Assembly (NCBI RefSeq): GCF_000826205.1
Contig: NZ_CDHL01000025.1
Length of the DNA: 24,000 nucleotides
Origin: Citrobacter pasteurii
Lineage (GTDB): Bacteria > Pseudomonadota > Gammaproteobacteria > Enterobacterales > Enterobacteriaceae
Direction: 5' to 3' (one strand)
Positions 789-17,676 of this stretch are shown here, in pieces. Made by a program: the position numbers and the translations under genes. The notes beneath the pieces were generated by a model. That model ran no database searches. It saw only the letters and a list, made by a program, of their open reading frames with translations, and was not told the origin of the DNA. Position 1 is the first letter of the stretch. Each line of letters opens with the position of its first letter.

Positions 789-1670
789 ATGAAAGATGAA
801 GTAAAAAGATTAAAACCACTTCCGGAAGTTCTAAGGAGATTGTTTTCTCTATCTGGTAATTTATGTTGCTTCCCTGGATGCGGTCAGTCAATGATAGATC
901 CCTCCGGCAATTTTGTGGGCCAGGTTTGTCATATTGAAGCAGCCAATACGGGTGGGGAGCGATTTAATGACAAGATGTCGAACGAGGATAGGCGCAGCTT
1001 TGATAACTTAATGTTACTATGTTACCCGCATCATATTGAAACAAATGATACAGTAAAATATGATGTTCTATCCTTAAAAAAGATGAAAGAAGAACATGAA
1101 AAAATCTTCTCCGATGATTTAATTGCCAACAAAATATTATTAAGCTTGAAGGATTACACCATAGATAGCTCGTTCAAAAAAGTATCAAATCTAAAAAATC
1201 TGTACAAAACTGTTTTTCCAGAGAATTATAAAATGGCTGAAGATGAAATGAATGATGCCGTAAATGCTTTTAATTCATCTATTGCCAAGTATTTATCATT
1301 AACTCCGTACTCAAGGAAAGTATTTGCTTGTGGAATAGCAAGATCAAATCACCCGTACAGTCTTTACCGTATAGATAATGATTCATTATATGTTGATGTA
1401 ACTGAGGTATGTAGAGCATTTGGTCGTGAAACAGATGATAGCGATATTCACAACTCTTTTAATGAAATTATAGCTAAGAATCTCATGCTCATCTCTGAGG
1501 TTAACATACACGTAGATTATGAAGTGGATAGGCTTGTATATACAAACTGCCTTGATCATAACGATTACGATCTAAATATATGGTTATTGCTAAAAAACTA
1601 CTGTAAAGAATCACAGATTGATATACGAAACTATCTTAGTGACTTAAACTTTAGTGGCTTAGATGATTGA
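789..1670 (+). CDS. HNH endonuclease-domain protein with unknown C-terminal domain (293 aa)
   Basis: AGGAG lies 8 nt upstream of the ATG. The N-terminus reads CCFPGCGQSM...GQVCHIEAANTGGERFN...FDNLMLLCYPHHIE, which is the CxxC / His / Asn / HH pattern of HNH (beta-beta-alpha-Me) nucleases. The C-terminal ~170 aa are unassigned. Confidence 0.75.
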   Translation: MKDEVKRLKPLPEVLRRLFSLSGNLCCFPGCGQSMIDPSGNFVGQVCHIEAANTGGERFNDKMSNEDRRSFDNLMLLCYPHHIETNDTVKYDVLSLKKMKEEHEKIFSDDLIANKILLSLKDYTIDSSFKKVSNLKNLYKTVFPENYKMAEDEMNDAVNAFNSSIAKYLSLTPYSRKVFACGIARSNHPYSLYRIDNDSLYVDVTEVCRAFGRETDDSDIHNSFNEIIAKNLMLISEVNIHVDYEVDRLVYTNCLDHNDYDLNIWLLLKNYCKESQIDIRNYLSDLNFSGLDD

Positions 1671-3907: not shown

Positions 3908-4516
3908 TCAGAAGCTGTCCAGAATTTGATTCCATTCGGCCTTACAGTCCAGCAGGTACCGGAGGCCGTTGTCGACCCCGTCAAGTAAATCGGAAGCCTC
4001 TCCCATTTTTTCCCCAAAGCGGCGGGTGTTGACGTAATGAATTCCTTCAAGGCTCCGGGTGCCGTCATTTCTCCTGGCATATCGGAAATCTGTCGCCCGT
4101 TCATCCGCTTGGTGAAGAGCTTTAACCACCTCTTTGACGATTTTAAAATCGGAAGGCCGGTAGCTGTCATCAACTTCTAGGATCAGTTTTTGTGCCAGCG
4201 GCCATAGATTATTCAGGTTATGGTCATCTTTTTTGTACTGGTGTTTATCCGGGTCTTCTGCCAGTGCAAGGGCCAGTCCGATAATTTGTTTGATAAGGAG
4301 CTCCAAGTGATGTCGGTAGAGAAACAACACCGGATAAACCAGAAAATCCTGGTCCCGCCCGGATTCATCAATGTGGTTAATCAGAATATCAGCAGCTCGC
4401 CTGTAACCTTCGGTATAAGCTGTACCATGATCCGACATGTAATTCAGGCAGGCATTATTGTGCCAGTCGCTGTCGCTGGCCAGCAGCCCCGGTTCTAACG
4501 TTTTTCCCTTTTTCAT
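3908..4516 (-). CDS. hypothetical protein (202 aa), possible HEPN-like helical protein
   Basis: GGAG lies 5 nt upstream of the ATG. The composition looks helical. Motifs LFLYRHHLELLIK and TDFRYARR recall Abi/HEPN-like helical bundles, but I cannot place a canonical Rx4-6H motif. Confidence 0.6.
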   Translation of the reverse strand: MKKGKTLEPGLLASDSDWHNNACLNYMSDHGTAYTEGYRRAADILINHIDESGRDQDFLVYPVLFLYRHHLELLIKQIIGLALALAEDPDKHQYKKDDHNLNNLWPLAQKLILEVDDSYRPSDFKIVKEVVKALHQADERATDFRYARRNDGTRSLEGIHYVNTRRFGEKMGEASDLLDGVDNGLRYLLDCKAEWNQILDSF

Positions 4517-4585: not shown

Positions 4586-4936
4586 TCAGCGGTCAGCAGC
4601 CAGTTCTTCAGCCAGCTTCACAAACCCTTTGTGCTCAGTCTGCAGGTAATGACTGTAAATCCGGGCATCACGTTCTGTCAGTCCGGATGGATTACCGGTG
4701 AAGTAACGTTGTAGCACCGCAATACAGTGATTGTAGGTATCGAGATCATATTCCCAGTTTCCCAGCTCACCGGCCGCATCCAGCTCCCGGCGAAACTGCT
4801 CGTATTTACGGAGCAGAATGCCAAGACCTAATTCTGTTGCAGCATAAACATTATTTTCTCCTGGCGCGGAAATCGCATTACGGATTTTTTCAAAAGCATA
4901 ACTGAAATCATTTCTCTCATTGAATGCAGTAAACAT
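4586..4936 (-). CDS. hypothetical protein (116 aa), upstream partner of 3908..4516
   Basis: Strong GAGGAAAGGA RBS. Same strand as the 202-aa ORF and 69 nt upstream of it. No motif recognised. Confidence 0.6.
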   Translation of the reverse strand: MFTAFNERNDFSYAFEKIRNAISAPGENNVYAATELGLGILLRKYEQFRRELDAAGELGNWEYDLDTYNHCIAVLQRYFTGNPSGLTERDARIYSHYLQTEHKGFVKLAEELAADR

Positions 4937-5364
4937 GTCCTTTCCTCAGTTGAATAGTTAGCCGTGCAATTTTACCACACCTCAATCATCGCCAGATGAG
5001 TGCCACTCTGTTGAGAAAGTGACTTTCACAAAAATGAATTTCACATACTGAAATAATAAGCAGACATATAAACACTCTATTAAATTACCGGGCGGCGGTT
5101 TTCAGATGATCCGATTTTCTGGCGTATAACAACTTTCCGGAAGTGTACCACGGTGAGGGAATAAGCAAAGTGTCCTTCCCGGTGGTGTTCGTGCGGTCAC
5201 GGGGAAGCGGATAAGCACAACATATAGATGAGAACCCAGCTGATAGAGTGGCATATCTTGTGTTTTCAGGCCGCAGCGCGTCGGAGGTGGCGTGAAGATC
5301 CTTTTCTGGTATTTTTCGGATCTCAGCAGAAAAAAGAAGCGTCGTGCGGAATCACATGATGATA

Positions 5365-5381
5365 AATGACATCATGTCATT
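5365..5381. promoter_or_regulatory. perfect 17-bp palindrome, candidate operator of the RHH-KAP operon
   Basis: AATGACAT-C-ATGTCATT lies about 100 bp upstream of ATG 5479. TTGACT at 5385-5390 is a possible -35. Confidence 0.5.
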
Positions 5382-5478
5382 AAATTGACTGAATGAAATA
5401 ATGGTGATTAACTCAGATAGAGCTAATTCATTCATGCCACTTACCTCACCTCAAACACCACCGATGACAGGAGCGACC

Positions 5479-6573
5479 ATGCTGAGCCAGCTGACCCTGC
5501 GCTTTCACAAAAAACTCATCGAGGCACTGAAAATGCGTGCCGGCCACGAAAACACCTCGGTGAACGCCCTCGCAGAACGTTTTCTCGACAGCGCGCTGAA
5601 AACCGCCGCCCCGGAGGACAGCTATCTGGCGCTGCTCGCCGATCGCGATGAAGCCATCCGCGGGATGTACCGCAAAATTATGCTCGGCCAGACCTTCGGC
5701 CTGGCGCCGGTCACCCGTGACGAACTGCGGCTGCTGCTCGGACTGGCCCAGGAAGGCTGTGTCCACGGCCGCAACCGGCTGGTCACCCGCCCGGCCCTGC
5801 AGATGCTGCTCGACATCACCGGGGAACTGCTGGCCTGGCAGGCGGAGCAGGGGATACCTATCGATCTGCCGTACCTGCAGGGCATTTTTCACCTGCAGGG
5901 AACGGCGCCAGCCACCGAATACGCGGACTTTCTCGCGACGCTGCGCCAGCGCCCGATCATCGACCAGGGCTATGCCGAACGGCTGCTGCGCCCGCTGGCG
6001 TCACAGTGCTTCGATCTGCGCACCTTCCCGGATGAGGCCCTGGCGCAGATCTTCACCCTGCCACGCCTGCAGGCGCTGTTCCCGCTGGCGCTGCGGGGTG
6101 AACCCTGGAGTGAGGCGGATGCACGCCAGCTGGCGGAGGCCACCCGCCCCGTGATCCCGGCAGTCCGGGAGACAATAGAGGCAGGCACGCTGCGGTTCGA
6201 TATTCAGGTGGACGGACAGGCGATAGCGTCACGGCCCGGCGGCTGGTATGAGGTTCCGCGCCTGCACCTGCTGATCACCGGTCAGGATTTTGTCGTGCCG
6301 TTCGGCTGGACTCATTTCTCGGAGCTGCTGGGCCTGTTCACCCTGTATGCCCGCCATCCGGACGCACTCGCGCATGGCCATCACGGCGAGCACGTGATGT
6401 TCTCACCGCCGGGCAATGCCTCAAAGGACGGCTTTTTTGGCCTCGATGGGCTGCGGATCTTCCTGCCACCGGAGGACTTCGACACGCTGGTCCGTGAGCT
6501 GGTTACCCGCTGCAGTGAAGGGATGCTGGCTGATGCGCTGAATGGCCTGCGCGGCCTGTACGGAGATTTGTAA
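5479..6573 (+). CDS. ribbon-helix-helix (Arc/CopG-like) N-terminal domain protein with large unknown C-terminal domain (364 aa)
   Basis: AGGAG lies 5 nt upstream of ATG 5479, which is internal to ORF 5401..6573. MLSQLTLRFHKKLIEALKMRAGHENTSVNALAERFL has the strand-helix-helix pattern. The stop codon is 2 nt before the next ATG. Confidence 0.7.
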   Translation: MLSQLTLRFHKKLIEALKMRAGHENTSVNALAERFLDSALKTAAPEDSYLALLADRDEAIRGMYRKIMLGQTFGLAPVTRDELRLLLGLAQEGCVHGRNRLVTRPALQMLLDITGELLAWQAEQGIPIDLPYLQGIFHLQGTAPATEYADFLATLRQRPIIDQGYAERLLRPLASQCFDLRTFPDEALAQIFTLPRLQALFPLALRGEPWSEADARQLAEATRPVIPAVRETIEAGTLRFDIQVDGQAIASRPGGWYEVPRLHLLITGQDFVVPFGWTHFSELLGLFTLYARHPDALAHGHHGEHVMFSPPGNASKDGFFGLDGLRIFLPPEDFDTLVRELVTRCSEGMLADALNGLRGLYGDL

Positions 6574-6575
6574 CC

Positions 6576-8828
6576 ATGAGCCAGACAGCAGAACAACAAC
6601 CATGCGGAAAGCACCCCGATCGGGCCGTCAGCACAGCGGAAGAAGACTGCTATGGGTTCACGCACATTGCCACCGAGTTAGCCCGTGCCATTCAGGGGAT
6701 CGGCCGGGAGGGCAGTGCCGTGATCGGTATCGAAGGCGCCTGGGGAACGGGGAAAACCAGCCTCCTGAATCTGCTGCGTATTGCACTGGAGGCACAGAAA
6801 GAAGACCGGACGTATGTGCTGAGCATCTCCCCCTGGCTTGACGGCAGCGATACGCCACTGGTGGCGTCACTCCTGCTGCCGGTCGCCGGCATCATTGCCC
6901 GGGAAGAAGAAAGCCGGCTTTCGGCCGTAGAACGGGCGAACCTCAAAGAGAAAAACGCGCTGACCGGCACCGCCCGTACGCTCATGGACTATACCCGGGC
7001 CACGGCCCGGCGGCTGGCGCCGCTCGCGCAGCTGGCCGCCGTGGTTCCCGGTATCCCCGATGCCAGCGGTGGCCTGAAAGCCGTGGCCGATTCGGACTGG
7101 CTGAAAGAAAAAGAAAAAACCACGGCAGAAATGCGTGCCGGCATTGCAGAGAAAATCGCAGAACTGGATCTGAGCTTCATTATCCTGCTGGACGATCTCG
7201 ATCGTCTTGAGCCGGCCCAGGCCGTGGAGGTGATCCGCCTGGTGAAGTCGGTCGCGGATTTTCCCCGCTTCCGCTACCTGCTCTGCTATGACAAAGCGGT
7301 GCTGGCAGAGGCCATCAGCCAGGGGCTGGGCGTGGCCGACGGCAGCCTGTATCTGCAGAAAATCGTGCAGATTTCCTTCGGGCTGCCGCGACCGGAGGCC
7401 TTTGTGCTGCGCCGGCAATTTCTGGAGGAGGCCATCCGGTTATACACGTCGGTGAACGGGCGTATGCCAGGGACCAGTGTGCAGGCGGCCCTGACGAGCG
7501 TCGCCGACATTTATGGGGCCGCACTGAAAACCCCCAGGGAGGTCCGGATGGTCATTAATGCGCTGGCCTTCCGCTATGCGGGTCTGCGGGATTATGTCTA
7601 TTTCCCGGATCTGTGCTTCCTGCAGTTGCTCCGCACCACGAATGCCGGCCTGTATGACTGGGTGGAAGCCTACCTGTCTGAACGGGCGGTGGTGGCGTCG
7701 GGTGAAGGGCATATCAGTGAACAAGAGCAGGAAGTACTGACTGAGAAACTGCGGACTCACCTGTCGCCGTATTTTCCTGGCGAAGCACATACCGTCGATG
7801 CGCTGAGTCAGTGGGTTCCGGGGATCTCCACCGGGGTGACGGACCAGGCCATCCATCTGTTCAGAACTGACAGCGAACAGGAAAAAGCCATACTGACCGC
7901 CGGAAAACGGCTGGGCAGCCAGGCCTACTGGCGCTACTATTTCGCCTTCTCCGCCCCGCAGAACGTCCTGCAGCCGGCGATTTTTGACCACATCTTCGAA
8001 GTGGCCGGCCATCCCGGAAAGCAGCGGGAACTGGCTGAACTGTTGTTCGGGTATATCCAGCGCCAGAACCTGTCTTCACGGACCTGGTTTGAGCACATTC
8101 TGAGCCAGCTGACCGTGCCGCTCATCGCCTCACGGACTCCCGGTGAATGCCGCGGTTTGCTGCAGTTCTTCCTGGACTACGGTGATGAAATACTGAAACG
8201 CTATCAGACGGAGGATCCGCGGTTTGAGCTGCATGATCTCGACACCTACAGCGTCGCTGACCGGCTCATCTTCCGGCTGTTACGGGATAACACGAACGGT
8301 ACCCGGGTCTTCCTGACAGAGCAGGCCCGGGACGGCCGGGCCTGGTACTGGATGGCAGAATATGTGCGCCACCTGCTGTGGCAACACGGGATGGCCGGGG
8401 ACGTGTCAAAAGATGATCAGGAAGAGTGGATGGCTCCGGACACATTAGAGACGTTTCGGGACGCGCTGGGGGCCAGGCTGAACAGTGCCGCCATCACCGA
8501 TACGCTGCCGGCGTTCCCCCTGCTGAACAGGTATATCTGGGCATGGTGTGACATCAGCGGGCTGGACGCCGTCCGGGAATGGGTGACCGTTCAGAGTCAG
8601 GAGGATGAGACTTTTCTGCAGTTGCTTCTGCAGCTGCGGGATCATCGCACTCGTTCAGTACAGGGGCATTACCGCACCCTGAAACTGGCCAGCATGACCG
8701 ACATTCTGGGGGACGTGGCGCAGATTAAAGCCCGTATCAGGTGTATCAAAAAGACCGGGCAGTATGCAGAACAGGTTGCCCTGGTCGAGCGAGCCATTGC
8801 GGGAACCCGGGGATCGCTAAGGCCCTGA
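6576..8828 (+). CDS. KAP-family P-loop NTPase (750 aa)
   Basis: Walker A is IGIEGAWGTGKTSLLN and Walker B is FIILLDDLDRLEP. The KAP-typical blocks ISPW, VKSVADFPRFRYLLCYD and YLQKIVQISFGLP are present. A long helical C-terminal region follows. Confidence 0.9.
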   Translation: MSQTAEQQPCGKHPDRAVSTAEEDCYGFTHIATELARAIQGIGREGSAVIGIEGAWGTGKTSLLNLLRIALEAQKEDRTYVLSISPWLDGSDTPLVASLLLPVAGIIAREEESRLSAVERANLKEKNALTGTARTLMDYTRATARRLAPLAQLAAVVPGIPDASGGLKAVADSDWLKEKEKTTAEMRAGIAEKIAELDLSFIILLDDLDRLEPAQAVEVIRLVKSVADFPRFRYLLCYDKAVLAEAISQGLGVADGSLYLQKIVQISFGLPRPEAFVLRRQFLEEAIRLYTSVNGRMPGTSVQAALTSVADIYGAALKTPREVRMVINALAFRYAGLRDYVYFPDLCFLQLLRTTNAGLYDWVEAYLSERAVVASGEGHISEQEQEVLTEKLRTHLSPYFPGEAHTVDALSQWVPGISTGVTDQAIHLFRTDSEQEKAILTAGKRLGSQAYWRYYFAFSAPQNVLQPAIFDHIFEVAGHPGKQRELAELLFGYIQRQNLSSRTWFEHILSQLTVPLIASRTPGECRGLLQFFLDYGDEILKRYQTEDPRFELHDLDTYSVADRLIFRLLRDNTNGTRVFLTEQARDGRAWYWMAEYVRHLLWQHGMAGDVSKDDQEEWMAPDTLETFRDALGARLNSAAITDTLPAFPLLNRYIWAWCDISGLDAVREWVTVQSQEDETFLQLLLQLRDHRTRSVQGHYRTLKLASMTDILGDVAQIKARIRCIKKTGQYAEQVALVERAIAGTRGSLRP

Positions 8829-11669: not shown

Positions 11670-12350
11670 TTAAATGGCTGACTCGGTCAGTTCAGACAAC
11701 CCCTGCATTATATGGCGCTTTCGTTCTTTGAGAAGAACCAGAGTTGCCGAGTGTGGCCCCTCTGAAAGAGGTGATTCCTGAAAACCACACTGCTTGCGAA
11801 TCCGTCTTGCCAGAGAAGATGCACGCAGGCCCAGCGGGGTAGTATAACGGGCCCGGATGCGAAGCAGTTCAGCACTGTCAGCACCGTAGGAAAGGTGTTC
11901 TGAGCTATTCGCTATATGGATACGGGCATCAAGAAGCATCCCTGGAAGCTCCATGATACGGTACATATCCCATGCCCGCAGCGCCCGCCAGTTCCCTTCC
12001 ACTCCGGCCAGACTGATTTCCGGGAACTCTGTTCCGGGAATAATCACAACCTGAGCCCTCGGATCATGGTTCTCTTTTTCTTTCCCTTTATCAATGGCCA
12101 CATCCGCACACTTGACAGCAAAAGATTCAAGAATAAATATCAGTTGCGAACCTATAAAACACAGCTCTGCTGCCTGCTCTCTGTCAGTTTTCTCCTGCTC
12201 AAGGTTCGCTTTATCTTTAATCGCCATTATTTCACGACGTCTGGCCAGTATATGTGTCAACAAAACTACTGAGAGTGCCCCGATATAGGGCCAACCCAGT
12301 GACAAAAACCCCCAGATATTCGTCGGCTCCTTAAGAAGTCCCGCCTCCAT
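11670..12350 (-). CDS. hypothetical membrane-anchored protein (226 aa)
   Basis: GAGGAAGG RBS. One N-terminal TM helix (WGFLSLGWPYIGALSVVLLTHIL) is followed by a charged coiled segment and a soluble domain. No motif recognised. Confidence 0.6.
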   Translation of the reverse strand: MEAGLLKEPTNIWGFLSLGWPYIGALSVVLLTHILARRREIMAIKDKANLEQEKTDREQAAELCFIGSQLIFILESFAVKCADVAIDKGKEKENHDPRAQVVIIPGTEFPEISLAGVEGNWRALRAWDMYRIMELPGMLLDARIHIANSSEHLSYGADSAELLRIRARYTTPLGLRASSLARRIRKQCGFQESPLSEGPHSATLVLLKERKRHIMQGLSELTESAI

Positions 12351-16143: not shown

Positions 16144-17676
16144 TTAAAATCCTGAGTTTAAATCGTACGTGATATCTACTGCCGGATCATCCACTTTGTA
16201 CGCCTGTTTGCTTAAACCGTAGTCCTCTGTACTGGATATACCATCAAACAGGTTATAGGGACTAATTGAATCGCCGACGATCCCCATCCAGGTGGCCAGG
16301 CCATTAACAAACATCAGGCCAGATTTCCGGGATGTAACGATGGTTCTCTTGTCATCATCAGATGATATCTTAACCAAAGGAATATCATGATGATATTTAC
16401 TGGCGTAGTTATTATTTAATTTAATCTCGCCATTTATTTCACGATGAACCAGTCCATGATCTGAAAAATAAATCATAGAAAAAGATCGACCACTGTTTTT
16501 GCTCTTCAGTATATTATAGGTCTCTTTTAAGAAATCATCCGTCTGCCTGATACTCGAAATATAGCACGCAATATAGTTGTTAATTCTGGAGCGTGATCTG
16601 TACTGATCGTCCATTTCCTTAATTCTGTCGCAGACATTCGGATGAGACCCCATGGTATGCAACACGATAAATCGTTTTTTATTGGTACTCTTTGATAAGA
16701 CACTCGTTAACTTCCGTAACAGCGCTGTGTCCTGAATGTTGGATTCATTGTATCCCTGGAATTTAGTAAAGTAGGAGTATTGCGCATTTTTAGCTATCGC
16801 AGATACGGGCGAATCCCATTCACCAAACTGGCCCTGATTTGATAACCAGTAGGACTCGATACCAGCCCGGTTTACCAGTCCCATGATATTCTGGTTATAG
16901 TGTGGCTGCCAGTTGTGAGGATCCCCCTGTGTCAGCATCATACGCAAAGAACCTATGGTATAGGTACCGCCGGACGTCAGGCCATTGACGATGTCTGCAT
17001 TCACACTGTCCAGAAAGGGTGTATTACCGACAGGATAACCATATACATGAAAATAGTCCCTCCTGGCACTTTCTCCAATAATCAGAATGTAGTCATCATA
17101 TTTCGAATTATTTGTCAGATGAACTTCACCCCAGTCATTTTTGTTTACGTATTTTGATAGTTCAGCCTGATCCTCTTTATAATCGTTAATAGACCCCCCT
17201 GCTTTTTTGATAAAAACAAGTGCGCCAGATGATATGGTGAGAATAATTGCAACCATCATCACATAAGCTTTGTTTTTAATCGGCCTGATTTTAAATTTAT
17301 ATGACAACAGGTGTAACATATAAAAAATAACAGGGATTAAAAATGCATATACATATGATTTAGACGGTATCAATGTAAGAAATTCGAGACTTTCCTGACC
17401 GTCAGTAGCGAATAAAGATGATACATACTGATAAGACGGAAACCCGTAAGTAAACCCCACAGGGGCATACAGGCCAACAATTATCGATACCGGAAGCGTG
17501 ATCAGTCTATATGATTTTTTTGACCCCAGCGTAAAACTTATTAACAGCAGGAGAACAATGATGTTAAAGACCTCCGGATGTGAGTCACCGGTTGCTCTTA
17601 AGGTAAATTTTGACAATAAAAAAAGAGGAACAAGAAGAAATGTAATCAATATGTACTGCTTGTATTTTTTTTGCAT
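16144..17676 (-). CDS. sulfatase-family membrane phosphoethanolamine-transferase-like enzyme (510 aa)
   Basis: About 5 N-terminal TM helices. The periplasmic domain has IIGESARRDYFHVYGY, TSGGTYTIGSL, HTMGSHPNV, YISSIRQTDDFL and IYFSDHGL, which parallel the EptA/OpgE/MCR conserved blocks. It is clearly not MCR-1 itself. AT-rich. Confidence 0.8.
   Translation of the reverse strand: MQKKYKQYILITFLLVPLFLLSKFTLRATGDSHPEVFNIIVLLLLISFTLGSKKSYRLITLPVSIIVGLYAPVGFTYGFPSYQYVSSLFATDGQESLEFLTLIPSKSYVYAFLIPVIFYMLHLLSYKFKIRPIKNKAYVMMVAIILTISSGALVFIKKAGGSINDYKEDQAELSKYVNKNDWGEVHLTNNSKYDDYILIIGESARRDYFHVYGYPVGNTPFLDSVNADIVNGLTSGGTYTIGSLRMMLTQGDPHNWQPHYNQNIMGLVNRAGIESYWLSNQGQFGEWDSPVSAIAKNAQYSYFTKFQGYNESNIQDTALLRKLTSVLSKSTNKKRFIVLHTMGSHPNVCDRIKEMDDQYRSRSRINNYIACYISSIRQTDDFLKETYNILKSKNSGRSFSMIYFSDHGLVHREINGEIKLNNNYASKYHHDIPLVKISSDDDKRTIVTSRKSGLMFVNGLATWMGIVGDSISPYNLFDGISSTEDYGLSKQAYKVDDPAVDITYDLNSGF

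What the first reader, a model, noticed from the sequence alone, without database searches (positions are those of the whole stretch)
5365..8828. RHH-domain protein + KAP-family P-loop NTPase: tightly coupled two-gene operon of unknown function (top candidate for an undescribed defence or addiction system)
Seen in sequence:
- A 364-aa protein has a first ~40 aa (MLSQLTLRFHKKLIEALKMRAGHENTSVNALAERFL) with the ribbon-helix-helix pattern. About 320 aa with no motif I recognise follow.
- Its stop codon is 2 nt from the ATG of a 750-aa protein. That protein has Walker A GAWGTGKTS, Walker B FIILLDDLDRLEP and the KAP-typical YLQKIVQISFGLP block, plus a ~450-aa helical tail.
- A perfect 17-bp palindrome (5365-5381) sits upstream.
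- The block is markedly GC-rich (one 60-nt line counted at about 62% GC) compared with its flanks.

Established knowledge: RHH proteins are typical autorepressors and antitoxins. KAP NTPases recur in defence islands, and few have a known mechanism.

Inference: this is an autoregulated sensor/regulator plus NTPase effector pair. It is embedded between an unknown pair, parDE and an Abi_2 gene, which is a defence-island context on a plasmid.
Basis: partly seen in the sequence, partly recalled or inferred. Interest (0 to 1): 0.8.

Follow-up and report, generated by a model that had tools for sequence, protein, structure and literature searches.

The report
Divergent pifC–pifA phage-exclusion operon
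This gene pair is not an undescribed system: it is a diverged copy of the F plasmid's classic pifC–pifA operon, in which a repressor controls an ATPase that aborts phage T7 infection, so it is an ordinary member of a long-known family.

Summary
The claim that the system is undescribed fails.

- **PifA:** ORF2 (6576-8828, 750 aa) matches the PADLOC PifA model end to end (E 9e-284). It is 41% identical to F-plasmid PifA. The KAP family is named after PifA.
- **PifC:** ORF1 (5479-6573, 364 aa) is 66% identical over its full length to F-plasmid PifC. PifC is the autorepressor of the pif operon and a fertility-inhibition factor.
- **Source:** the window comes from a 95.6-kb Citrobacter pasteurii plasmid.
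- **Palindrome:** the 17-bp palindrome is most likely the PifC operator. It ends 4 bp before a conserved promoter. Across more than 80 loci its sequence class follows residue 6 of the PifC ribbon-helix-helix strand: Thr goes with TGACAT-n-ATGTCA and Asn with TGCTA-n-TAGCA.
- **Pairing:** the two genes are not obligate partners. Chromosomal PifA homologues lack pifC. About a third of pifC genes are followed by a different gene.
- **Divergence:** this PifA differs most from the F allele in its last 200 residues (4-34% identity), so its phage trigger may differ.

Verdict: new member of a known kind, low interest.

The parts
5351..5357 (+). Extra half-site-like element ATCACAT. It is a direct copy, with one mismatch, of the left palindrome arm ATGACAT, 15 bp upstream of it.
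   Evidence: Sequence. Inverted repeat I4, 5350-5361 / 5370-5381, is 92% complementary. TCACAT is also present at the same place in L013, L015 and Enterobacter/Kluyvera loci. A role as an auxiliary PifC site is inferred.
5365..5381 (.). 17-bp palindrome AATGACAT-C-ATGTCATT: candidate PifC operator (pifO equivalent).
   Evidence: Unique in the window, 0.06 expected. The core is conserved in every Thr6-class pifC locus while the flanks diverge. Class association with RHH residue 6 holds in 64 of 66 metagenome loci, with no cross-class case. Binding by PifC is not tested.
5386..5414 (+). Likely pifC-pifA promoter: -35 TTGACT (5386-5391), 17-nt spacer, extended -10 TGaTTAACT (5406-5414).
   Evidence: TTGAC and TGATTAAC form the conserved block in alignment A4 of nine upstream regions. 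The consensus scan instead picked ATGTCA/AATAAT at 5374-5402, which overlaps the palindrome arm, but that -10 is not conserved in relatives. The transcription start is not mapped.
5469..5473 (+). Shine-Dalgarno AGGAG for pifC.
   Evidence: Sequence. GACAGGAG is conserved in relatives.
5479..6573 (+). pifC homologue, 364 aa: N-terminal ribbon-helix-helix domain (about residues 1-44, nt 5479-5610) plus a family-specific body of about 320 aa.
   Evidence: 66% identity over the full length to F-plasmid PifC, E 1e-172. The N-terminal 50 aa hits Pfam DUF6364 at 28.5 bits (cut-off 27.3) and gives weak hits to the HicB, CopG, FitA, Arc and RHH_5 RHH families. The body has no PDB sequence or fold match. 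The body family is small: 90 clusters among 1.84 billion representatives.
6576..8828 (+). pifA homologue, 750 aa: KAP-family P-loop NTPase, the phage-exclusion effector.
   Evidence: PADLOC PifA model, E 9.1e-284, 941.5 bits, profile positions 5-716 of 720. 41% identity over 724 aa to F PifA. Pfam KAP_NTPase, E 1.5e-36, residues 28-335. No transmembrane-grade hydrophobic segment: the maximum Kyte-Doolittle 19-residue average is 1.48.
6735..6761 (+). Walker A motif GAWGTGKTS (residues 54-62).
   Evidence: Translation. G54, W56, G57, G59, K60, T61 and S62 are invariant in 48 PifA homologues.
7176..7214 (+). Walker B region FIILLDDLDRLEP (residues 201-213).
   Evidence: Translation. D206, D207, L208, D209, R210, L211, E212 and P213 are invariant in 48 homologues.
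8226..8825 (+). C-terminal helical region (residues 551-750), the part most diverged from F PifA. Candidate trigger-recognition region.
   Evidence: Identity to F PifA is 4-34% per 50-aa block here, against 54-58% in the NTPase core. Family-wide conservation is also lowest here. The region is confidently modelled as helical. A sensor role is inferred.

Best explanation
The locus is a plasmid-borne pifC-pifA operon, a diverged allele of the F plasmid's 'phage inhibition by F' system.

**Shown here**
- Full-length homology of both proteins to F PifC and F PifA.
- A conserved promoter with an adjacent palindrome.
- A 2-nt intergenic gap.
- An intact KAP NTPase core, with no transmembrane segment.

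**Inferred from what is known of F**
- PifC binds the palindrome at 5365-5381 through its N-terminal ribbon-helix-helix domain. Such domains bind DNA as dimers, probably as a dimer of dimers. An upstream half-site at 5351-5357 may add to the site.
- The palindrome ends 4 bp before the -35 hexamer. Binding there would repress the bicistronic pifC-pifA transcript and keep PifA scarce.
- PifA is a membrane-associated, probably ring-forming P-loop NTPase. It recognises a phage protein made during infection; for the F allele these are T7 gp1.2 and the capsid protein gp10.
- Recognition causes a membrane permeability lesion with loss of ATP. Phage development aborts.
- The C-terminal 200 residues are almost unrelated to the F allele, so the phage trigger and range of this allele are probably different.
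- PifC may also act, as in F, as a fertility inhibitor of rival IncP/IncW plasmids by targeting their coupling protein.
For: **Identity of the proteins**
- PADLOC PifA, 941 bits, full length.
- BLASTP to F PifC, 66% over 364 aa; to F PifA, 41% over 724 aa.
- Pfam KAP_NTPase, E 1.5e-36.
- Homologous genes in public plasmid records are annotated 'transcriptional repressor PifC' and 'phage T7 exclusion protein'.

**Synteny**
- Same context as F: tyrosine recombinase, two small genes (ccdAB in F), a conserved inverted repeat, then pifC-pifA.

**Operator**
- The palindrome is unique in the window.
- It is footprint-conserved next to the conserved TTGAC / TGATTAAC promoter.
- The Thr6 class carries TGACATnATGTCA and the Asn6 class carries TGCTA(n0-3)TAGCA. 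This holds in 15 genome and plasmid loci and in 64 of 66 metagenome loci with no cross-class case.
- The class does not follow the phylogeny of the protein body.
- One homologue has a LuxR-type HTH in place of the RHH, which marks the N-terminus as the DNA-binding module.

**PifA structure**
- AlphaFold model, mean pLDDT 78.8.
- The best solved-structure matches are the heptameric RdrA rings of the RADAR defence system (E 1e-5), followed by ORC/Cdc6 and NLR/Apaf-1 ATPases.
- No transmembrane helix. PMC13001434 states the same for F PifA.

**Mechanism of the F allele, from papers**
- PMC8594841 (gp1.2 and gp10 dependence, narrow range).
- PMC13001434 and PMC9311878 (membrane depolarisation, nucleotide leakage).
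- PMC5696584 (PifC targets coupling proteins).
Against: - Nothing has been tested for this allele: no phage phenotype, no DNA-binding data, no mapped transcription start.
- PifA is only 41% identical to the tested F protein. Its C-terminus is essentially different, so trigger, range and even the effector output are extrapolations.
- The operator assignment rests on conservation and covariation. The promoter and the RHH N-terminus could co-segregate simply because they are adjacent and recombine as one block.
- I could not retrieve the papers that mapped pifO and the pifC promoter in F. The correspondence to the experimentally defined pifO therefore rests on my memory only.
- The PifC model is of low confidence: mean pLDDT 63.5, with the RHH strand modelled as helix in the monomer.
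- The BASEL authors question whether phage defence is PifA's primary role (PMC8594841).
Confidence: 0.88

Rival explanations
1. The pair is mainly a plasmid-competition or plasmid-maintenance module, not an antiviral one. On this view PifC's principal job is to inhibit the conjugative coupling proteins of rival plasmids (and, in F, to act near origin ori-1). PifA is a co-regulated passenger whose T7 exclusion is a side effect.
For: - PifC blocks IncP and IncW transfer through their coupling proteins (PMC5696584).
- pifC occurs in more plasmid records than pifA: 1348 against 1052.
- pifC occurs without pifA.
- It always sits in the replication/partition/resolution region.
- F PifA affected only T7 and one close relative in the BASEL panel, and the authors suggest it may not have evolved as an immunity system (PMC8594841).
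Against: - This does not contradict the identification; it only reweights the two functions.
- The genes that replace pifA behind pifC include a HEPN-like protein matching the PADLOC defence candidate PDC-S64 (E 1e-16) and a protein with weak SLATT-like 2TM similarity, below Pfam cut-offs. That points to a defence slot.
- PifA homologues stand alone in chromosomes and prophages next to other defence-type genes.
- The window neighbourhood carries PD-T4-5 and other defence-candidate genes.
Confidence: 0.1
2. The pair is a toxin-antitoxin (addiction) module. The RHH protein neutralises a toxic NTPase and represses the operon, which stabilises the plasmid by post-segregational killing.
For: - RHH N-terminus on the first gene, tight coupling of the two genes and an upstream palindrome.
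- Bona fide toxin-antitoxin genes lie on both sides.
- The BASEL authors could not obtain a functional ectopic pifA construct (PMC8594841).
Against: - Five of five sampled chromosomal or prophage PifA homologues have no pifC next to them.
- About a third of pifC genes are followed by unrelated genes or by none.
- PifC carries a 320-aa conserved body, unlike short labile antitoxins.
- F with pifA replaced by a resistance cassette is viable and is used routinely (PMC8594841). That does not by itself exclude toxicity of PifA without PifC.
- From memory, pifC mutants of F are viable and merely overexpress the operon. I did not verify this here.
Confidence: 0.03
3. It is a genuinely undescribed two-gene defence system that only shares the KAP NTPase fold with known systems.
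For: - PGAP labels both genes uninformatively in this record: 'hypothetical protein' and 'P-loop NTPase fold protein'.
- NCBIfam has no model that reaches its cut-off for either protein.
Against: - Similarity to F PifC and F PifA is full-length and collinear, not confined to a domain.
- The PADLOC PifA profile is covered over positions 5-716 of 720 at 941 bits. The next best KAP-type model, PDC-S20, scores 61 bits.
- Gene order, coupling and flanking synteny are the same as in F.
- Intermediate alleles form a continuum from 97% to 47% identity.
Confidence: 0.01

Closest known systems
F-plasmid pif operon (pifO-pifC-pifA; 'phage inhibition by F', T7 exclusion)
   Same: - Same two genes in the same order with a 1-2 nt gap.
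- PifC 66% and PifA 41% identical over the full length.
- Same flanking synteny with a ResD-like recombinase.
- A 17-bp palindrome lies upstream of pifC in both.
- PifA lacks transmembrane helices in both (PMC13001434).
   Different: - Operator class differs: AATGACAT-C-ATGTCATT about 100 bp upstream of the ATG here, against AATGCTA-GGT-TAGCATT about 30-47 bp upstream in F. RHH residue 6 is Thr here and Asn in F.
- The PifA C-terminal 200 aa are nearly unrelated, at 4-34% identity.
- pifA is GC-rich here (60%) but not in F (48%).
- The host plasmid is a MOBP mobilizable Citrobacter plasmid, not IncF.
- The ccdAB slot holds two unknown genes.
RdrA ATPase of the RADAR defence system
   Same: Best solved-structure match to the PifA model, over the whole length (Foldseek E 1e-5, probability 1.00). 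Both are large P-loop ATPases with helical C-terminal extensions used in phage defence. RdrA forms heptameric rings, which suggests PifA may also oligomerise.
   Different: TM-scores are low (0.27-0.33) and sequence identity is 10-13%. There is no RdrB-like adenosine deaminase partner here. RADAR's output is nucleotide modification, whereas PifA's reported output is a membrane lesion (PMC13001434).
Other KAP-NTPase defence proteins (QatA of the Qat system, PADLOC candidate PDC-S20, enterococcal EF_KAP)
   Same: Shared KAP NTPase domain with Walker A and B motifs. In EF_KAP the Walker B motif and the C-terminal region are both needed for defence (PMC13552941).
   Different: These score only 27-61 bits (PADLOC QatA and PDC-S20) and 25 bits (NCBIfam QatA, cut-off 600), against 941 bits for PifA. 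QatA works with QatBCD partners, which are absent here. EF_KAP has transmembrane helices and is reported not to act by abortive infection (PMC13552941).
RHH autorepressors of plasmid operons (Arc/Mnt/CopG/ParD type)
   Same: The N-terminal strand-helix-helix sequence pattern gives weak hits to several RHH families and to Mnt (E 0.8). A palindromic candidate operator lies beside the promoter of the protein's own operon.
   Different: PifC carries an extra conserved body of about 320 aa with no recognisable fold. In F this body region is presumed to carry the coupling-protein inhibition. PifC is not an antitoxin.

Membership tests
PifA (F-plasmid phage exclusion protein; PADLOC single-gene system 'PifA') | Full-length match to the PifA profile and to F PifA, not only to the KAP domain | tested here: met
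   PADLOC PDLC02361, E 9.1e-284, protein 12-742 on profile 5-716 of 720. 41% identity over 724 aa to F PifA.
PifA (F-plasmid phage exclusion protein; PADLOC single-gene system 'PifA') | KAP-family P-loop NTPase core with intact Walker A and Walker B | tested here: met
   Pfam PF07693, E 1.5e-36, 126.6 bits against cut-off 20. GAWGTGKTS and LLDDLDRLEP are present and invariant in 48 homologues.
PifA (F-plasmid phage exclusion protein; PADLOC single-gene system 'PifA') | No transmembrane helices, unlike most KAP NTPases | tested here: met
   The highest 19-residue Kyte-Doolittle mean is 1.48, below the usual 1.6 threshold. The model shows no membrane-spanning hairpin. F PifA is described as lacking transmembrane helices in PMC13001434.
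PifA (F-plasmid phage exclusion protein; PADLOC single-gene system 'PifA') | Abortive exclusion of phage, triggered by specific phage proteins (T7 gp1.2 and gp10 for the F allele) | not testable with these tools
   Needs phage assays. The divergent C-terminus makes a different trigger plausible.
PifC (transcriptional repressor of the pif operon; fertility-inhibition factor) | Full-length homology to F PifC | tested here: met
   66% identity, 364 against 362 aa, E 1e-172. Many homologues at 64-68% identity are named 'transcriptional repressor PifC' by NCBI or UniRef.
PifC (transcriptional repressor of the pif operon; fertility-inhibition factor) | First gene of the operon, immediately upstream of pifA and tightly coupled to it | tested here: met
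   2-nt gap here and 1 nt in F. The same arrangement is seen in Leclercia, Enterobacter, Cronobacter, Serratia and Buttiauxella loci.
PifC (transcriptional repressor of the pif operon; fertility-inhibition factor) | Autoregulation through a cis operator (pifO) upstream of pifC | tested here: inconclusive
   A conserved palindrome beside the conserved promoter covaries with RHH residue 6. No binding or expression data exist, and the papers defining pifO in F could not be read.
PifC (transcriptional repressor of the pif operon; fertility-inhibition factor) | Inhibition of IncP/IncW conjugation via the type IV coupling protein | not testable with these tools
   Shown for F and R64 PifC in PMC5696584. 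Not inferable for a 66%-identical protein.
Ribbon-helix-helix (MetJ/Arc/CopG) DNA-binding domain | N-terminal strand-helix-helix sequence signature recognised by RHH family profiles | tested here: met
   DUF6364 scores 28.5 bits against cut-off 27.3 on the 50-aa fragment, and all 9 diverse PifC N-termini hit it. There are weak hits to HicB, CopG_antitoxin, FitA-like_RHH, Arc and RHH_5 and to the Mnt repressor, E 0.8, in register. Support is moderate: the monomer AlphaFold model does not form the strand. That DUF6364 belongs to the RHH clan is my recollection.
Type II toxin-antitoxin system | Obligate pairing of toxin and antitoxin genes | tested here: not met
   PifA homologues occur without pifC in 5 of 5 chromosomal or prophage loci. 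pifC occurs without pifA in about one third of 65 metagenome loci and in several plasmids.

The most novel reading that the evidence does not exclude
The promoter-operator-pifC unit may be a portable, self-repressed expression cassette.

- It would come in at least two operator-specificity classes: RHH residue 6 Thr with TGACAT-n-ATGTCA, and Asn with TGCTA-n-TAGCA. These have been exchanged between PifC lineages at least three times.
- The gene slot right behind pifC would be a cargo-exchange site for defence effectors. Besides several very divergent PifA alleles it holds:
  - a 292-aa HEPN-like protein (PADLOC candidate PDC-S64);
  - a 457-aa protein with no detectable family;
  - a 250-aa protein with two transmembrane-like segments and weak SLATT similarity;
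  - a 375-aa unknown protein.
- If so, 'gene after pifC' is a cheap discovery handle for new plasmid-borne defence genes.
- The window's PifA allele, with its unrelated C-terminus, would sense a phage trigger other than T7 gp1.2 or gp10.

I found no paper in the held library describing this.
Probability: 0.45. Interest if true: 0.45.

Novelty: new member of a known kind. Interest (0 to 1): 0.22.

Why it matters
For the scan, the main value is negative. A high-scoring 'undescribed system' candidate is a classical, named system and should be down-ranked. PGAP's uninformative labels ('hypothetical protein', 'P-loop NTPase fold protein') hid this.

Three smaller points may interest people who work on plasmid-borne defence:
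- PifA is a large allelic series whose C-terminal third is hypervariable. Neither PifA nor PifC has a sequence relative among solved structures.
- The two operator/RHH specificity classes give a natural, testable example of repressor-operator co-variation hinging on one strand residue.
- The slot behind pifC carries alternative, mostly uncharacterised cargo genes.

Tried and rejected
- **PDB sequence search.** PifC gave no hit at E up to 10. PifA gave only two chance hits (E about 0.6). No relative has a solved structure.
- **PifC structure.** The AlphaFold model from a 44-sequence alignment reached only mean pLDDT 63.5: the helical core 80-220 is confident, and 223-330 is poor. Foldseek against the PDB gave nothing below E 0.06, with TM-scores of 0.16 or less. 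The fold of the PifC body stays unknown.
- **NCBIfam.** No model for PifC. For PifA only QatA, far below its cut-off at 25 bits against 600.
- **Genome-contig scan with PifA.** It returned only three close relatives, so I used plasmid records, exact-protein look-ups and a metagenome DNA-pattern scan instead.
- **Old primary papers.** The papers on pifO and the pifC promoter, and the KAP-family paper, are not in the held library. Statements about pifO mapping in F rest on memory and are marked as such.
- **Promoter scan.** The consensus scan's top hit (ATGTCA/AATAAT, 5374-5402) was rejected in favour of TTGACT / TGaTTAACT, because only the latter is conserved across relatives. The same scan found no promoter upstream of F pifC, so the relative positions of operator and promoter in F could not be compared.
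- **Terminator.** No intrinsic-terminator-like site was found between the pifA stop and the convergent parE.
- **Colistin resistance.** I considered whether the plasmid's phosphoethanolamine transferase is an MCR colistin-resistance gene. It is not: every MCR model scores far below its cut-off.

Full report
**1. The observation**

- ORF1 runs from ATG 5479 to TAA 6571-6573 and encodes 364 aa beginning MLSQLTLRFHKKLIEALKMRAGHENTSVNALAERFL.
- Two bases ('cc') separate its stop from ATG 6576.
- ORF2 (6576-8828) encodes 750 aa with GAWGTGKTS, FIILLDDLDRLEP and YLQKIVQISFGLP.
- Positions 5365-5381 read AATGACAT-C-ATGTCATT: two perfect 8-nt arms around one base. The core TGACATNATGTCA is unique in the 24-kb window, with 0.06 matches expected even allowing one mismatch.
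- GC content is 58-65% between 5501 and 9000, against 43-49% on the flanks.
- A longer 390-aa frame from ATG 5401 is open. All homologues begin at MLSQL, and AGGAG lies at 5469-5473, so 5479 is the start.

**2. What it is**

Family and pairwise matches identify both proteins.
- The PADLOC library matches ORF2 to its PifA model at E 9.1e-284 (941.5 bits), covering profile positions 5-716 of 720. The next KAP-type model scores 61 bits.
- Pfam finds the KAP_NTPase domain at residues 28-335, E 1.5e-36.

The window is identical to a stretch of Citrobacter pasteurii FDAARGOS 1424 plasmid unnamed2 (NZ_CP077263.1, 95.6 kb, MOBP, mobilizable). PGAP calls the two genes 'hypothetical protein' and 'P-loop NTPase fold protein' there.

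I fetched the F plasmid (NC_002483), where pifC and the adjacent NTPase gene (pifA) lie at 44672-45760 and 42445-44670.
- ORF1 is 66% identical to F PifC over the whole length (364 against 362 aa, E 1e-172).
- ORF2 is 41% identical to F PifA over 724 aa.
- Gene order and tight coupling are the same. So is the neighbourhood: a ResD-like tyrosine recombinase, two small genes (ccdAB in F), a conserved inverted repeat, then pifC-pifA.

So this is the pif ('phage inhibition by F') operon. KAP stands for 'Kidins220/ARMS and PifA' (PMC13001434, PMC13552941).

**3. What is known about the system (from papers)**

- F PifA is one of the best-studied abortive-infection proteins of E. coli. It blocks T7 and a close relative. 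Sensitivity depends on T7 gp1.2, with the capsid protein gp10 also involved (PMC8594841).
- The outcome is membrane depolarisation and nucleotide leakage (PMC13001434, PMC9311878).
- Its range is very narrow, and the BASEL authors wonder whether defence is its primary role (PMC8594841).
- pifC is named the 'pif operon regulatory gene' in the title of the cited 1985 J. Bacteriol. paper. It also inhibits conjugation of IncP and IncW plasmids by targeting their coupling proteins (PMC5696584).
- The primary papers on pifO and the pifC promoter were not retrievable.

**4. The palindrome as operator**

I compared 260 bp upstream of pifC in 15 loci besides the window: F and other plasmids, draft-genome contigs, and contigs carrying exact-match proteins.

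Every PifC with Thr at position 6 of the predicted RHH strand (SQL-T-LRF) carries TGACAT[C/G]ATGTCA or a close variant.
- Seven loci have the exact core about 105-117 bp upstream of the ATG.
- Pantoea has a one-mismatch copy.
- Salmonella has a degenerate one.

Among PifC proteins with Asn (SQL-N-LRF), including F, four of five carry a TGCTA(n0-3)TAGCA palindrome about 42-47 bp upstream. Serratia L006 has only half-site-like TAGCA/TGCTA copies.

An independent sample came from 72 metagenome contigs found with a degenerate pattern for the pifC 5' end.
- 49 of 50 Asn loci carried the Asn-type palindrome.
- 15 of 16 Thr loci carried the Thr-type palindrome.
- There were no cross-class cases. Both exceptions are one-mismatch variants.
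- After dereplication the table is 37/0/0/8 (Fisher p 5e-9). The loci are related, so this is not a true probability.

The association does not merely reflect descent.
- The C-terminal bodies of the Thr-class proteins of L013, L014 and L015 are 76-85% identical to the Asn-class F and Leclercia proteins, but only 63-65% identical to the Thr-class window protein.
- The Thr-class Pantoea body is 62% identical to the Asn-class Cronobacter body and about 34% identical to everything else.
- So the operator class follows residue 6, or the 5' module, across at least three body lineages.

In the footprint alignment the conserved block is (A)TGACATnATGTCATT-AA-TTGAC(T), then 17 nt, then TGATTAAC. This gives a -35 at 5386-5391 and an extended -10 at 5406-5414. 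The palindrome ends 4 bp before the -35. An extra half-site-like ATCACAT sits at 5351-5357.

The RHH assignment has moderate support.
- The N-terminal 50 aa passes the DUF6364 cut-off and gives weak hits to the HicB, CopG, FitA, Arc and RHH_5 families.
- It aligns in register with Mnt at a non-significant E-value.
- One distant homologue carries a LuxR-type HTH instead of the RHH on the same body. That marks the N-terminus as the exchangeable DNA-binding module.

DNA binding itself remains inferred.

**5. Are the two genes obligate partners? No.**

- tblastn finds PifC in 1348 plasmid records and PifA in 1052.
- Five of five sampled chromosomal or prophage PifA homologues lack pifC. They come from Aeromonas, Pectobacterium, Citrobacter, Salmonella and Providencia and are 50-56% identical to the window PifA.
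- In the metagenome loci with enough downstream sequence, the gene behind pifC is as follows:
  - PifA-like in 43 (29 nearer the F allele, 14 nearer the window allele);
  - a 292-aa HEPN-like protein matching PADLOC candidate PDC-S64 in 10;
  - a 457-aa protein with no family in 7;
  - a 250-aa protein with two N-terminal transmembrane-like segments and weak SLATT similarity in 2;
  - no recognisable downstream gene in the rest.
- Pairwise identities of PifC and PifA are decoupled between loci: F 66/41, Leclercia 68/69, Serratia 38/68, Kluyvera 95/81.

This argues against a toxin-antitoxin reading. It favours a regulator cassette with exchangeable cargo.

**6. The proteins**

PifA:
- It has no transmembrane-grade segment.
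- Its AlphaFold model (48-sequence alignment, mean pLDDT 78.8) shows a P-loop core followed by a long helical region.
- The best solved-structure matches are the heptameric RdrA rings of RADAR (E 1e-5, TM about 0.3), then ORC/Cdc6 and NLR/Apaf-1 ATPases. This is consistent with an oligomerising sensor ATPase, but it is weak evidence.
- Identity to F PifA is 54-58% in the NTPase core and only 4-34% in residues 551-750. A different phage trigger is therefore plausible.
- The PifA family forms a continuum from 97% to 47% identity across Enterobacterales and Aeromonas.

PifC:
- Its body (residues 50-364) belongs to a small family: 90 clusters among 1.84 billion representatives.
- It has no PDB sequence or fold match.
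- It is modelled with only moderate confidence.

**7. Context**

- The downstream 'Abi' gene is a full-length match to PADLOC PD-T4-5 (E 1.7e-115).
- The next gene matches candidate PDC-S67.
- An upstream gene has a Shedu/DUF4263-like nuclease N-terminus.
- ParDE and a RelB-like gene are present.

**8. Verdict**

The finding is real but not new. I rate it 'new member of a known kind' with low interest.

The by-products are modest leads rather than discoveries:
- two operator/RHH specificity classes;
- exchangeable cargo behind pifC;
- a hypervariable PifA C-terminus.

Noticed in passing
window 5294-5345 (arms about 5296-5301 and 5317-5323); the same element in L002, L003 (F), L004-L007, L010-L012, L016: A conserved inverted repeat AGATCC(G)-n13-15-CGGATCT, followed by cAG..GAAAAAAGAAG, lies about 150-190 bp upstream of pifC in nearly all loci, including F, Pantoea and Serratia. 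It always sits between the ResD-like recombinase side and pifC. It could be the recombinase's resolution site (rfsF in F) or an origin-associated element. That idea comes from memory and was not tested.
   Followed up: partly
L013 4582-5460; L016 4591-5460; L011 5169-6296; metagenome loci L035, L040, L056, L064, L082, L083, L091 and L024, L043: The gene directly behind pifC is sometimes not pifA. Alternatives are a 292-aa HEPN-like protein (PADLOC candidate PDC-S64, E 1e-16), a 457-aa protein with no family hit, a 250-aa protein with two transmembrane-like segments (weak SLATT/DUF6442), or a 375-aa unknown protein. This suggests a cargo-exchange slot.
   Followed up: partly
Pfam Abi_2 is below its cut-off.
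   Followed up: partly
window 11670-12350 (-) and 789-1670 (+): Two more defence-candidate genes. One matches PADLOC candidate PDC-S67 (E 7e-20). The other has an N-terminal DUF4263/Shedu-SduA-like nuclease domain (E 8e-19; PDC-M68A, E 1.6e-22).
   Followed up: no
window 3908-4516 (-) and 4586-4936 (-): Two genes with no Pfam, PADLOC or NCBIfam hit occupy the position that ccdAB holds in F, between the recombinase and pifC. Two small genes of similar size and position, not checked for homology, lie beside pifC in Leclercia, Enterobacter, Pantoea and Erwinia plasmids. This may be an uncharacterised stability or toxin-antitoxin pair.
   Followed up: partly
pifC in window 5479-6573 and in L002, L003, L007, L010, L014: pifC is GC-rich (61-66%) in every plasmid examined, whatever the background GC (48-54%). 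The GC content of pifA varies from 48% to 60%. Unexplained.
   Followed up: partly
protein P0259 (519 aa): A distant PifC-body homologue carries an N-terminal LuxR/GerE-type helix-turn-helix region instead of the RHH domain. This is a DNA-binding-domain swap on the same body.
   Followed up: no
L014 and L016, about 39 bp upstream of pifC; imperfect copies in L013 and L015: A second palindrome, CTGTATTCAG(A/T)GAATACAG, lies between the promoter and the pifC start in one Thr-class sub-lineage. It is absent from the window's lineage. Its function is unknown.
   Followed up: no
L013 1272-3203: In E. coli plasmid pKGu016_1 a SMODS nucleotidyltransferase plus an S-4TM effector pair (CBASS-like) sits immediately upstream of pifC. 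This is another sign that the region collects defence genes.
   Followed up: no
window 16144-17676 (-): A plasmid-borne phosphoethanolamine transferase. It is far below the cut-off of every MCR colistin-resistance model (best MCR score 52 bits against 1235), so it is not an MCR gene.
   Followed up: yes
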